From: the human T2T-CHM13v2.0 reference genome, Homo sapiens
Reading direction: 5' to 3' (one strand)
NCBI RefSeq assembly: GCF_009914755.1
Contig: NC_060940.1
Length of the DNA: 64,000 nt
Positions 37,432 through 39,600 of the stretch are shown here, piece after piece; position 1 is the first letter of the stretch; each line of letters starts with the position of its first letter. A program made the position numbers and the translations under genes. Under the pieces are notes generated by a model, which had not been told where the DNA came from, made no database searches, and saw only the letters and a program-made list of their open reading frames with translations.

Positions 37432-37751
37432 ATTTTATTTTATTTTATTTTGAGACAGGGTCTTGCTCTGTCCCCCAGGCTAGAGTGCTGTTGTGCGATC
37501 ATGGCTTACTGAAGCCTGGACCTTCTGGGCTTAAGTGATCCTCCCACTTGATCTTCCTCCCACCTCAGCCTCCCGAGTAGCTGAGACTACAGGTGTATAC
37601 CAGCACATCTGGCTAATTAAAAAAAAATGTTTGTAGAGATGGGCTCTGTTGTCCAAGCTGTTCTTAAACTCCTGGCCTCAAGTGATCCTCCAGCACTAGC
37701 ACTGGCTTCTCAAAGTGCTGGAATTAAAGGCATAAGCCACTGTTCCTGGCC
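37432..37751 (-). mobile_element. AluJ-like
   Basis: (TTTTA)n tail and diverged dimer; interrupts an old L1. Confidence 0.87.
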
Positions 37752-38106
37752 AGAAGGAGGTCTTTTTTTTTTTTCATTTTCATTTTTTATTTTTTTCTAT
37801 ATCAGGCCACTGCTGGAGACATCTTTTTCTTAATTTAAAAACACAGGCAAAAATGTGTATAGTTTAGAACATAAGCATATTGAAGCTATAATGAAAACAA
37901 GGGGATGGTTAATATATAATTCAGTATAGTAGTGGCTAACTGGATGTGATGATGGAGGAGGCCACAGGGAACTTTTCCATTCCTTCAGCTGGGCAGCAAG
38001 TATGGGAATTCCTTTTATTATTTTTCTTTTAAACTGAACACATAGATTTTTATATCCTTTTTAATACATATTTTATAATGAAAATGTTTTTAAAAATTAT
38101 CTTTTG

Positions 38107-38402
38107 GGTCAGGTGCAGTGGATCACTCCTGTAAGCCCAACACTTTGGGAGGCCAAGGCAGATGGATCACTAGGTCAAGAGATTGAGACCAACTTGGCCA
38201 ACATGGTGAAACCCCATCTCTATTAAAAATACAGAAATTAGCCAGGCATGATGATGGGCGCCTGTAGTCCCAGCCACTCATGAGGCTGAGGCAGGAGAAT
38301 CTCCTGAACCCGGGAGGCGGAGGTTGCAGCAAGCCAAGATCGTGCCACTGCACTCCAGCCCGGCGACAGAGTGAGACTCCACTCAAAAAAAAAAAAAAAA
38401 AA
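38107..38402 (+). mobile_element. AluSc-like, nested in the composite insert
   Basis: TSD aaaaattatcttttg (38092-38106) / aaaaattctcttttg (38398-38412). Confidence 0.9.
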
Positions 38403-38447
38403 TTCTCTTTTGAGCCCTGCCACAATTTATATTTATAAACTCTTGCC

Positions 38448-38461
38448 CCAGTAGATGGTGC
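38448..38461 (+). promoter_or_regulatory. Candidate CTCF motif
   Basis: ccagtagatggtgc vs consensus CCASYAGRKGGCRS (one mismatch). Confidence 0.45.
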
Positions 38462-38852
38462 TGTGTCTTGGGAGGCTCTAAATGAAGGAGTGCACTAGCT
38501 TATTGGGTTGCAGCTTGGAGTCCATGGAAGCTCATATGTGAATCTTGAGAAAATCAATTTCAACTTTTACCCTCTGAATGGAATTTTGTGTGAAACCATG
38601 CTCGAGTGTGTGTGTGTGTGTATGTGTGTGTGTGTGTGTGTGTGGTGTCTTAAGACTGTAATATCTAAGATTAACTTGGGTGATCACTAAAACTCCAGAA
38701 GTGCTTTTCCACATTATAACCAGGCTTGAAGCCTTAAAGCCTCTACATCTTTTTTTTTTTTTTTTTTTTTTGAGACGGAATCTAGCTCTGTCACCTGGGC
38801 TGGAGTGCAGTGACACGACCTCGGCCCACCACAAGCTCCACCCAGAAGGAGG

Positions 38853-39600
38853 TCTTAAACAAGAAACAAAAGTGAACTACTAGCTATGAGATAAAAAATA
38901 ATAAATTAGACTACATTAACATTAAAACTTCTGACCATCTGAAGATGATAAAGAAAATGATAAATTAAGCCACAAACTGGAAGAAGATATTTGCAGTCTA
39001 TATGAAAGAGAATGGAGTACTACTCAGAATATGCAAAGAACTCCTACAAATAAAAAAGAAAAAAAACAATTTGAAAGAAAAACAAGCAGATGATATAGAT
39101 ATTTCACCCATGAGGACACACAAATTACCAAGAAACATAGGGAAAAATCTCTTAAATTCAGGGAAATTCAAATTAAAGCAATAGCACACATTAGGTAACA
39201 AAGAGTCAGATGAATGTGAACTCATAGGCACAGGTGGAAGGACTATAACTTGCTACAAGCATTTTGTAAAACAAAGTGGCATTAGCTTATAAGGTGAGCG
39301 TTTCCATTGCTCGGAACATACCCTAAAGAAACTCTTGCTCTTTTATGCCAGGAAGCATATACAAAAATATACATAGCAGCCTTGTTCATGAAGCAAAAAT
39401 ATAGAAGCAATGGCAGTGTCTATCATCAGAAAAATGAGTAAGTAGTGCCATAGTCACACAATGGATTATAATGCAGCAGTGAAAATGGATGGGCACACAA
39501 GAATTGATTTTGTTTAAATTTTTTAAATTTACAGAAGACTAAGCAGAACATTATGCCATTTTTCAAATAAAAAAGATTAAACAATATGTTGAGAAATACA
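38853..39600 (+). mobile_element. Old L1M (L1MC/ME-like) ORF2 3' fragment
   Basis: aaattagactacattaacattaaaacttctg...aaactggaagaagatatttgca...cagaatatgcaaagaactcctacaaat. Confidence 0.7.

What the first reader, a model, noticed from the sequence alone, without database searches (positions are those of the whole stretch)
37750..38856. ~1.08-kb retrotransposed composite block: a truncated AluY-like fragment plus carried flank (transduction or retrocopy) delivering a CTCF-like motif
Seen in sequence: a perfect 15-bp direct repeat ccagaaggaggtctt (37750-37764, 38842-38856) brackets 1077 bp. The left copy runs straight into a T-rich tail (a poly(A) on the minus strand). The right copy ends TCTT|AAA, an L1-endonuclease-type nick site. 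Read on the minus strand, the cargo is: ~70 bp of 5'-truncated Alu (AluY-like gagcttg) with its own A-tail, unique DNA with a (CA)n tract and a CTCF-like motif (38448-38461), an opposite-strand AluSc with its own TSD, an old L1-like piece, then the second A-tail. Independent support: the old L1 that stops at gtagggaaggattt (37419-37432) appears to resume at cttaaacaagaaacaaaa (38854), so everything between was inserted. Established: TSD + poly(A) + 5' truncation is the TPRT signature; 3' transduction is common for L1/SVA but considered rare for Alu. Inference: the cargo has many T-runs that would stop Pol III, so the template was probably a Pol II (pre-)mRNA or an orphan transduction. A repeat annotation would show only unrelated fragments and miss the unit.
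Basis: partly seen in the sequence, partly recalled or inferred. Interest (0 to 1): 0.8.

Follow-up and report, generated by a model that had tools for sequence, protein, structure and literature searches.

The report
Truncated retrocopy of a chr14 transcript
This is an ordinary old retrotransposed copy of the last 1 kb of a polyadenylated chromosome 14 transcript that happened to contain two Alu elements; it now sits in an HS3ST4 intron and shows no sign of function.

Summary
CCAGAAGGAGGTCTT occurs exactly at 37750-37764 and 38842-38856. Only 1 of 300 shuffles of the region gives any exact 15-mer pair.

The bracketed cargo, 37773-38842, aligns collinearly with one other place in the genome, C14:69086941-69087989. 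Identity is 92.5% over 1071 columns.

- At the source the minus-strand Alu is full length with its own duplication. The copy is cut inside it.
- The plus-strand Alu and its duplication are already present at the source.
- The copy's poly(A) starts about 14 nt after an AATAAA on the source's minus strand.
- The target was nicked at TCTT/AAA.

So this is an L1-mediated, 5'-truncated retrocopy of a Pol II transcript's 3' end. It is not an Alu-driven transduction: the RNA strand carries 9 runs of four or more T, one of them T18.

The source lies 3-4 kb upstream of, and antisense to, a CpG-island first exon that I read as DLST.

Three side claims fail:
- The "old L1-like piece" is unique DNA.
- The "L1 resumes" support is not found.
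- The CTCF-like motif is at chance level.

Known kind, low interest.

The parts
37433..37751 (-). Older complete Alu, not part of the insert. Its 5' end (GGCC on the minus strand) abuts the target site, and its last two bases are the first two of the 15-mer.
Evidence: Read. Alu-Alu similarity at 37433-37518 and 37563-37688 to Alus of L009.
37750..37764 (.). Left copy of the target-site duplication: 13 nt certain (AGAAGGAGGTCTT), plus CC that is ambiguous.
   Evidence: D12, 100% identity. 1 of 300 shuffles gives any exact 15-mer pair.
37765..37774 (-). Remnant of the poly(A) tail of the retrocopied RNA, seen as T on the plus strand. 7 bases are untemplated; the last 3 could come from the source.
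   Evidence: alignment: the source reads CTTTCATTTTC where the copy has a 12-T run. Run length confirmed.
37786..37791 (-). AATAAA polyadenylation hexamer of the template transcript, 11-14 nt upstream of the tail.
   Evidence: TTTATT on the plus strand. The same hexamer is at L009 4961 on the minus strand.
37775..38106 (-). Unique 3'-terminal segment of the transcript copy.
   Evidence: 2 genome matches from 2 candidates, self and C14:69086945-69087264 at 97%. 6 mismatches in 327 aligned positions.
38107..38402 (+). Alu (S-type by recalled diagnostics) with an A18 tail and flanking repeats at 38096-38106 and 38402-38412. It is antisense within the RNA and was already present at the source.
   Evidence: the element and both flanking repeats align to the source. 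Repeat strings. 29 mismatches in 296 positions.
38413..38749 (-). Unique segment with a (GT)n tract (about 38606-38646) and the CTCF-like motif at 38448-38462.
   Evidence: the only full-length matches are self and C14:69087575-69087908 at 95%; the other 39 listed matches lie on the (GT)n tract. Motif.
38750..38843 (-). 3' 71 nt of an Alu (Y-type by recalled diagnostics) plus its A22 tail. This is the 5' truncation point of the retrocopy; the Alu is full length at the source.
   Evidence: the source Alu continues to about L009 6200 and is flanked by TGAAGCCTCTACA on both sides. The copy leaves the source after ...CAAGCTCCACC.
38842..38856 (.). Right copy of the target-site duplication. Its first two bases (CC) match both the source and the target, a 2-nt microhomology at the 5' junction.
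38853..38859 (+). First-strand nick site TCTT/AAA. It matches the L1 endonuclease preference TTTT/AA at 5 of 6 positions.
   Evidence: The TTTT/AA preference is as tabulated in PMC4859970 (passages seen).

Best explanation
The 1077 bp between the two 15-mers is a 5'-truncated retrocopy, made by the L1 machinery acting in trans on a cellular RNA.

**The template.** It was a polyadenylated Pol II transcript read from the minus strand of chr14 (CHM13 69,086,941-69,087,989 and further upstream). That region is intergenic. It lies 3.1-4.1 kb upstream of, and antisense to, the CpG-island first exon of the gene I read as DLST, and about 19 kb from the PROX2-type exons. The transcript ran through an AluY-type element (sense), unique DNA and an AluS-type element (antisense). 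It was then cleaved and polyadenylated about 14 nt after an AATAAA.

**The insertion.**
1. L1 endonuclease nicked the plus strand of chr16 at TCTT/AAA, right beside the 5' end of an older Alu.
2. The poly(A) tail annealed to the exposed T's and reverse transcription proceeded for about 1.05 kb.
3. The cDNA was joined to the other side of a staggered break 13-15 bp away through a 2-nt microhomology. This cut the copy inside the AluY and created the duplication.

**Shown:** the paralogy and its exact limits, the duplication, the untemplated tail, the nick site, the AATAAA, the presence of both Alus at the source, and the truncation inside a full-length source Alu.

**Inferred:**
- Pol II as the polymerase.
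- L1 ORF2p as the enzyme.
- A germline event, roughly in the ape stem lineage.
- A divergent DLST-promoter transcript as the template. I put about 0.35 on this last point alone.
- No present function.
For: - **A single source locus.**
  - Window 38413-38750 has 2 full-length matches among the 41 listed (160 candidates, 40 scored). These are itself and C14:69087575-69087908 at 95%.
  - Window 37776-38100 has 2 matches from 2 candidates.
- **One collinear block.** BLAST pairs 37772-38842 with L009 4942-5990 at 92.53% over 1071 columns, same strand. The alignment shows that similarity begins and ends at the two 15-mers.
- **Direction of copying.** The chr14 Alu continues about 210 bp beyond the copy's end and has its own flanking repeat TGAAGCCTCTACA. 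Only the chr16 block has the duplication and extra T's.
- **A Pol II 3' end.** AATAAA lies at L009 4961 on the minus strand and at window 37791-37786. The copy's tail starts 11-14 nt later.
- **Pol III is excluded in practice.** The RNA strand has 9 runs of four or more T, including T18. Alu transcription ends at a TTTT terminator (PMC4859970, passages seen).
- **The signature matches the published hallmarks** of a poly-A tract, target-site duplications and the TTAAAA site. The same papers describe 5'-truncated mRNA copies joined by microhomology (PMC2831318, abstract and passages; PMC4859970, passages).
- **Setting of the source.**
  - CpG island at L009 8501-9500, with GC 0.62-0.71 and CpG o/e 0.59-0.93.
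  - An ATG at L009 9055 opens MLSRSRC...SAFQK, followed by GT.
  - 2 of the 12 PF00198 matches lie on the plus strand 19-20 kb downstream.
  - 3 of the 6 PF05044 matches lie at C14:69064234-69067601, minus strand.
Against: - No intron is spanned, so 'processed' cannot be shown. The copy is collinear with genomic DNA throughout.
- I could not see any annotation or expression data for the chr14 locus, so the template transcript is not identified.
- Five other AATAAA/ATTAAA hexamers lie on the minus strand between the CpG island and the site used. A promoter-divergent transcript would have had to pass all of them.
- An orphan L1 or SVA transduction cannot be fully excluded, because only 40 of 7825 candidates were scored.
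- The divergence is uneven. Alu parts differ at 39 of 378 positions and unique parts at 19 of 670 (Fisher p = 8e-7). Polarised changes in the Alu parts favour the copy 27 to 10. A simple equal-clock picture does not predict this.
Confidence: 0.9

Rival explanations
1. Orphan 3' transduction. An L1 or SVA that once lay upstream on the chr14 minus strand read through into this DNA. The copy was truncated so severely that none of the element remains.
For: The anatomy would be identical: duplication, tail, a downstream AATAAA, and unique DNA from another locus. Such events are described for L1 and SVA (PMC4859970, passages).
Against: - L009 6206-8545, the 2.3 kb upstream in RNA sense, resembles the 64-kb window only at Alu intervals and two short pieces.
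- In the genome search, all matches other than self lie on query 47-405 and 1053-1397, the two Alus. This test is limited: only 40 of 7825 candidates were scored.
- Further upstream is the CpG island and first exon of a plus-strand gene.
Confidence: 0.05
2. Alu 3' transduction. The chr14 AluY was transcribed from its own Pol III promoter, read past its terminator for 1 kb, and the whole RNA was retrotransposed.
For: The copy holds two homopolymer tracts and the source Alu's 3' flanking repeat (GATGTAGAGGCTTC in RNA sense) right after the first tract. That is the textbook layout of a 3' transduction (PMC4859970 passage).
Against: - There are 9 Pol III terminator-type T runs in the RNA strand between the Alu and the tail, including T18.
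- The 3' end is not at a T run. It lies 11-14 nt after AATAAA.
- The Alu part is only its last 71 nt, so nothing shows that transcription began in it.
Confidence: 0.02
3. This is native DNA with a chance 15-mer, or a DNA-level duplication (repair synthesis, segmental duplication) rather than an RNA-mediated copy.
For: The cargo is collinear with genomic DNA, with no intron lost.
Against: - Only 1 of 300 shuffles yields any exact 15-mer pair.
- The paralogy ends exactly at the two 15-mers.
- 7 or more untemplated T's sit at the end that follows an AATAAA.
- The nick site reads TCTT/AAA.
Confidence: 0.02

Closest known systems
5'-truncated processed pseudogenes / retrocopies of cellular Pol II transcripts made by L1 in trans (e.g. 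the mRNA-derived pseudogenes of PMC2831318)
   Same: - Target-site duplication.
- Untemplated poly(A).
- An L1 endonuclease-type nick site.
- A 3' end at the parent's polyadenylation site.
- 5' truncation with microhomology at the junction (paper passages).
   Different: - The parent is not an identified protein-coding mRNA. It is an intergenic, repeat-laden stretch upstream of a CpG-island promoter.
- No intron loss is visible.
- At 1077 bp it is longer than the 300-bp-or-less class that paper describes.
L1 or SVA 3' transduction, including orphan transductions
   Same: Non-repeat DNA from another locus is delivered with a tail and a duplication, and the insert holds two homopolymer tracts (PMC4859970 passages).
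   Different: No L1 or SVA was detected upstream at the source. The first homopolymer tract belongs to an Alu that lies inside the transcript.
Alu retrotransposition (Pol III transcript, L1 ORF2p in trans)
   Same: It uses the same integration machinery, and an Alu 3' end with an A-tail is present.
   Different: - The Alu is only a 71-nt internal passenger.
- The RNA strand has 9 Pol III terminator runs.
- The real 3' end is a Pol II cleavage site.

Membership tests
L1-mediated (target-primed) retrocopy of a cellular Pol II transcript | Flanking target-site duplication of 4-20 bp | tested here: met
   Exact 15-mer, of which 13 nt are certain. 1 of 300 shuffles gives any such pair.
L1-mediated (target-primed) retrocopy of a cellular Pol II transcript | Poly(A) at the 3' end that is not templated at the source | tested here: met
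   7-10 T's are present in the copy only. The tail is short, as expected for an old insert.
L1-mediated (target-primed) retrocopy of a cellular Pol II transcript | Nick at an L1 endonuclease-type site (TTTT/AA) | tested here: met
   TCTT/AAA, 5 of 6 positions.
L1-mediated (target-primed) retrocopy of a cellular Pol II transcript | A source locus elsewhere that is collinear with the cargo and extends beyond its 5' end | tested here: met
   C14:69086941-69087989, 92.5% over 1071 columns. The Alu continues about 210 bp further at the source.
L1-mediated (target-primed) retrocopy of a cellular Pol II transcript | 3' end at a polyadenylation signal of the parent | tested here: met
   AATAAA lies 11-14 nt before the tail, at both loci.
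L1-mediated (target-primed) retrocopy of a cellular Pol II transcript | Loss of introns relative to the parent gene (the 'processed' criterion) | tested here: inconclusive
   The 1048 aligned bases are collinear with genomic DNA and span no intron.
L1-mediated (target-primed) retrocopy of a cellular Pol II transcript | An identified parent transcript | not testable with these tools
   No annotation or expression data for chr14 were on hand. The paper search for DLST + PROX2 + lncRNA listed 2 unrelated livestock studies.
Orphan L1/SVA 3' transduction | A progenitor L1 or SVA directly upstream of the transduced DNA, on the same strand, at the source | tested here: not met
   Only Alus were detected in the 2.3 kb upstream. 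Sensitivity is limited because 40 of 7825 candidates were scored, and a lost or polymorphic progenitor cannot be seen.
Alu (Pol III) 3' transduction | An uninterrupted Pol III transcript from the Alu to the 3' end, ending at a T-run terminator | tested here: not met
   9 runs of four or more T, including T18, lie in the path. The end follows AATAAA and is not a T run.
CTCF binding site | Match to the core motif beyond chance | tested here: not met
   There is 1 match with 1 mismatch to a degenerate consensus typed from recall. Expected 0.38, and 31 of 100 shuffles reach 1 or more.
CTCF binding site | Occupancy in cells | not testable with these tools
   No ChIP data on hand.

The most novel reading that the evidence does not exclude
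The retrocopy is a fossil, some tens of millions of years old, of a stable polyadenylated upstream-antisense transcript of about 4 kb fired from the DLST CpG-island promoter in the ancestral ape germline.

On this reading, the copy-specific excess of substitutions in its two inverted Alu arms is a footprint of RNA- or cDNA-level modification of the Alu-Alu hairpin in the template, not later decay. The excess is 27 changes derived in the copy against 10 in the source.

The evidence does not exclude this, and does not favour the editing part:
- RNA-sense A>G against T>C is 8 to 4 (p = 0.39).
- The 5' neighbours of the eight A>G sites, read by eye from the alignment, are U, A, C, C, G, G, C, U. 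That shows no ADAR-like bias.
Probability: 0.1. Interest if true: 0.4.

Novelty: new member of a known kind. Interest (0 to 1): 0.15.

Why it matters
It matters little for biology. L1 copying cellular RNAs in trans, with 5' truncation, is textbook, and nothing points to a function here.

Three modest points remain:
- **Annotation.** A repeat annotation would split this unit into unrelated Alu fragments and 'unique' DNA, so it illustrates a class that such tracks miss.
- **History of the chr14 locus.** The copy records that an intergenic stretch upstream of DLST was transcribed and polyadenylated at this AATAAA, in a cell lineage that reached the germline.
- **Phylogenetic marker.** The clean duplication should make the insert a homoplasy-free presence/absence marker among catarrhine primates.

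Tried and rejected
- **'L1 resumes across the insert'.**
  - The right flank, 38843-39600, hits 11 of 11 fetched L1-like loci at 63-71% identity, and two hits reach 38846 and 38853.
  - The left flank, 36700-37432, hits 0 of 11 and matches only itself in the genome.
  - I reject this as support. At about 68% identity the test is weak, so it is not disproved.
- **'Old L1-like piece' at 37776-38100.** Rejected: 2 matches from 2 candidates.
- **CTCF motif.** At chance level. It is identical at the source, so it was carried over rather than created by the insertion.
- **ADAR footprint in the inverted Alus.**
  - I polarised copy-source differences with panels of 34 and 26 other Alu copies.
  - RNA-sense A>G is 8 against T>C 4 (p = 0.39), with no 5'-neighbour bias by eye. 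Not supported.
- **APOBEC-type footprint on first-strand cDNA.** This would appear as RNA-sense G>A. Only 3 non-CpG cases were seen against 6 C>T. Not supported.
- **Other retrocopies of the same transcript.** None found. Searches find only the two loci, and no high-identity non-Alu match appears.
- **Literature.**
  - HS3ST4 + retrocop*: 0 papers.
  - DLST + PROX2 + lncRNA: 2 unrelated livestock GWAS papers, seen as a listing only.
  - I did not check retrogene or self-chain catalogues, so I do not claim this copy is uncatalogued.
- **Alu subfamily labels.** The Y- and S-type labels rest on diagnostic positions I recalled. No call tested them.
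Full report
**Observation**

The 15-mer CCAGAAGGAGGTCTT is exact at 37750-37764 and 38842-38856 (family D12; sequence read). In 36500-40000 it is the only exact direct 15-mer pair that is not an Alu-Alu match or a simple run. Only 1 of 300 dinucleotide-preserving shuffles of that region gives any exact 15-mer pair.

The left copy runs into 12 T's at 37763-37774. The right copy is followed by AAAC, so the site reads TCTT/AAA.

**The source locus**

- Window 38413-38750 gave 41 listed matches (160 candidates, 40 scored). Two cover the whole query: itself, and C14:69087575-69087908 at 95%. The other 39 lie on query 167-255, the (GT)n tract.
- Window 37776-38100 gave 2 matches from 2 candidates: itself, and C14:69086945-69087264 at 97%.

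I fetched C14:69082000-69091999 as L009. BLAST pairs window 37772-38842 with L009 4942-5990 in one collinear block on the same strand, at 92.53% over 1071 columns. All other hits are Alu-to-Alu at 87% or less. C14 is chr14 by the same numbering that makes the window C16.

**What the alignment shows**

- *Limits.* Similarity starts at the TTTCATTTTC just after the left 15-mer's T run. It stops at ...CAAGCTCCACC, overlapping the first two bases of the right 15-mer.
- *The minus-strand Alu.* At the source it does not stop there. It continues about 210 bp to its GGCC end and is flanked on both sides by TGAAGCCTCTACA. So the source holds a complete Alu with its own duplication, and the chr16 copy holds only its last 71 nt plus tail.
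- *The plus-strand Alu.* The element at 38107-38402 and both of its flanking repeats (ATTATCTTTTG / ATTCTCTTTTG) are present at the source. It was therefore part of the template and is not a later arrival.
- *The tail.* Where the copy has 12 T's the source reads CTTTC, so 7 (at most 10) T's are untemplated.
- *The 5' junction.* The CC that begins the right 15-mer matches both the source (ACC) and the target (GCC). This is a 2-nt microhomology at the 5' junction.

Direction is therefore clear: chr14 is the parent and chr16 the copy.

**Which polymerase made the template**

- On the minus strand, AATAAA lies at L009 4961 and at window 37791-37786. That is 11-14 nt before the tail, the normal spacing for cleavage and polyadenylation.
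- The RNA-sense strand of the cargo has 9 runs of four or more T, one of them T18. Alu transcription by Pol III ends at a TTTT terminator (PMC4859970, passages seen).
- The layout does mimic a 3' transduction, with two homopolymer tracts and the source Alu's 3' flanking repeat after the first. That is the layout PMC4859970 describes for L1.
- Even so, the Alu is best read as a passenger inside a longer Pol II transcript, and as the place where the copy happened to be truncated.

**How the insertion happened**

1. The plus strand of chr16 was nicked at TCTT/AAA, which matches TTTT/AA at 5 of 6 positions.
2. The RNA's poly(A) annealed to the exposed T's and was reverse transcribed for about 1.05 kb.
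3. The cDNA end joined the other side of a break staggered by 13-15 bp through the CC microhomology.

These are the hallmarks listed for L1-mediated copies of mRNAs: a poly-A tract, duplications, the TTAAAA site, 5' truncation and microhomology-mediated joining (PMC2831318, abstract and passages).

The use of L1 ORF2p and a germline setting are inferences. The insert is antisense to HS3ST4, whose intron it occupies (hub annotation).

**Where the source lies**

- L009 8501-9500 is a CpG island, with GC 0.62-0.71 and CpG o/e 0.59-0.93.
- An ATG at L009 9055 opens MLSRSRC...SAFQK and is followed by GT.
- 2 of the 12 genome matches to the 2-oxoacid dehydrogenase acyltransferase domain lie on the plus strand at C14:69110163-69111421, 19-20 kb downstream. 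I recognise the peptide and the setting as DLST from recall.
- 3 of the 6 homeo-prospero domain matches lie at C14:69064234-69067601 on the minus strand. I read these as PROX2, by recall.
- The copied segment is thus intergenic, 3065-4112 bp upstream of the ATG and on the opposite strand.

A divergent transcript from that promoter is an attractive template, but it would have to pass five other AATAAA/ATTAAA hexamers. I could not see any annotation or expression data for chr14. I give this sub-claim about 0.35.

**Was it an orphan L1 or SVA transduction?**

The 2.3 kb upstream in RNA sense (L009 6206-8545) resembles the 64-kb window only at Alu intervals and two short pieces. In a genome search, every match other than self lies on the two Alus, at query 47-405 and 1053-1397. 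Only 40 of 7825 candidates were scored, so this is a limited test.

**Age**

| Segment | Differences | Percent |
|---|---|---|
| Whole block | 58 of 1048 | 5.5% |
| Two unique segments | 19 of 670 | 2.8% |
| Two Alu segments | 39 of 378 | 10.3% |

There are also 4 indel events. The Alu-unique contrast gives Fisher p = 8e-7.

For scale, I recall human-orangutan divergence as about 3% and human-macaque as about 6%. No call supports these figures. On that scale the insertion belongs roughly to the ape stem lineage. The Y-type Alu in the template gives a catarrhine upper bound, again by recall. No primate genomes were on hand, so the empty site could not be sought.

**Side claims that fail**

- *The 'old L1-like piece'.* It is unique DNA.
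- *The 'L1 stops at 37419-37432 and resumes at 38854' support.*
  - The right flank is a diverged multi-copy repeat (305 candidates, 68-79% identity). It hits 11 of 11 fetched loci, and two hits reach 38846 and 38853.
  - The left flank hits 0 of 11 and matches only itself in the genome.
- *The CTCF-like motif.* It fits a recalled degenerate consensus at 14 of 15 positions. Such a match is expected 0.38 times in the window, and 31 of 100 shuffles do as well. It is identical at the source.

**An unexplained detail**

I polarised the copy-source differences in the two Alu segments with panels of 34 and 26 other Alu copies.
- 27 changes are derived in the copy, 10 in the source, and 2 are unclear (two-sided binomial p = 0.008).
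- At non-CpG sites where the panel support is strong, the split by my reading is 14 to 4 (p = 0.03).

The two Alus are inverted relative to each other (I5 and I6) and would pair in the RNA, so I tested for A-to-I editing footprints. RNA-sense A>G against T>C is 8 to 4 (p = 0.39), and the 5' neighbours show no bias. This is not supported.

A faster local clock on chr16, or constraint or conversion at the source, would also explain the asymmetry. Orthologues are needed to tell these apart.

**Verdict**

It is a 5'-truncated retrocopy of the 3' end of a repeat-laden, apparently non-coding Pol II transcript. It is neither an Alu transduction nor a demonstrated regulatory delivery. Paper searches for HS3ST4 with retrocop* found 0 papers. 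I did not check retrogene catalogues.

Noticed in passing
window 38105-38402 and 38750-38842 versus L009 5274-5547 and 5920-5990: - Polarised with other Alu copies, 27 differences are derived in the chr16 copy, 10 in the chr14 source, and 2 are unclear (p = 0.008).
- The Alu parts differ at 10.3% and the unique parts at 2.8%.
- The cause is unknown. Candidates are a faster local clock, conversion or constraint at the source, or changes at the RNA/cDNA stage.
   Followed up: partly
window 38316-38402 with 38755-38842: The two Alus of the cargo are inverted relative to each other (46 nt at 78% and 44 nt at 77% complementary, I5/I6). At the source both are full length, so the template RNA could fold into a long Alu-Alu hairpin. 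A test for A-to-I footprints was negative.
   Followed up: yes
L009 830-1316 (+), i.e. C14:69082829-69083315: Broken open frames read like a small methyltransferase (METTL5-like by recall). 2 of 3 pieces give weak Pfam methyltransferase matches below the cut-offs. This is probably a processed pseudogene about 4 kb from the source segment.
   Followed up: partly
G000:C1:75580093-75580710 (-): An uninterrupted 214-aa open frame matches positions 26-231 of the 2-oxoacid dehydrogenase domain in one piece (E 3.7e-63). The chr14, chr11 and other chr1 matches, by contrast, are exon-sized. This looks like an intronless retrocopy of one of these genes.
   Followed up: no
window 37860-37864, 38622-38625, 38750-38771: Length differences between copy and source: 5 extra bases (TAGTT region), 4 extra bases in the (GT)n tract, and an Alu tail of T22 against T11.
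   Followed up: no
window 36100-36730: By eye this stretch looks like the 3' part of an L1 on the minus strand, ending in a T-rich tract near 36100. It is a different element from the plus-strand L1-like repeat that starts at about 38846. Recognised from recall only (read).
   Followed up: no
window 37433-37751 and 37752-37764: The retrocopy inserted exactly at the 5' end of an older minus-strand Alu. That Alu's own flanking repeats are no longer clear: GGGAAGGATTT on the left against AGAAGGAGGTCTT on the right, sharing GAAGGA.
   Followed up: no
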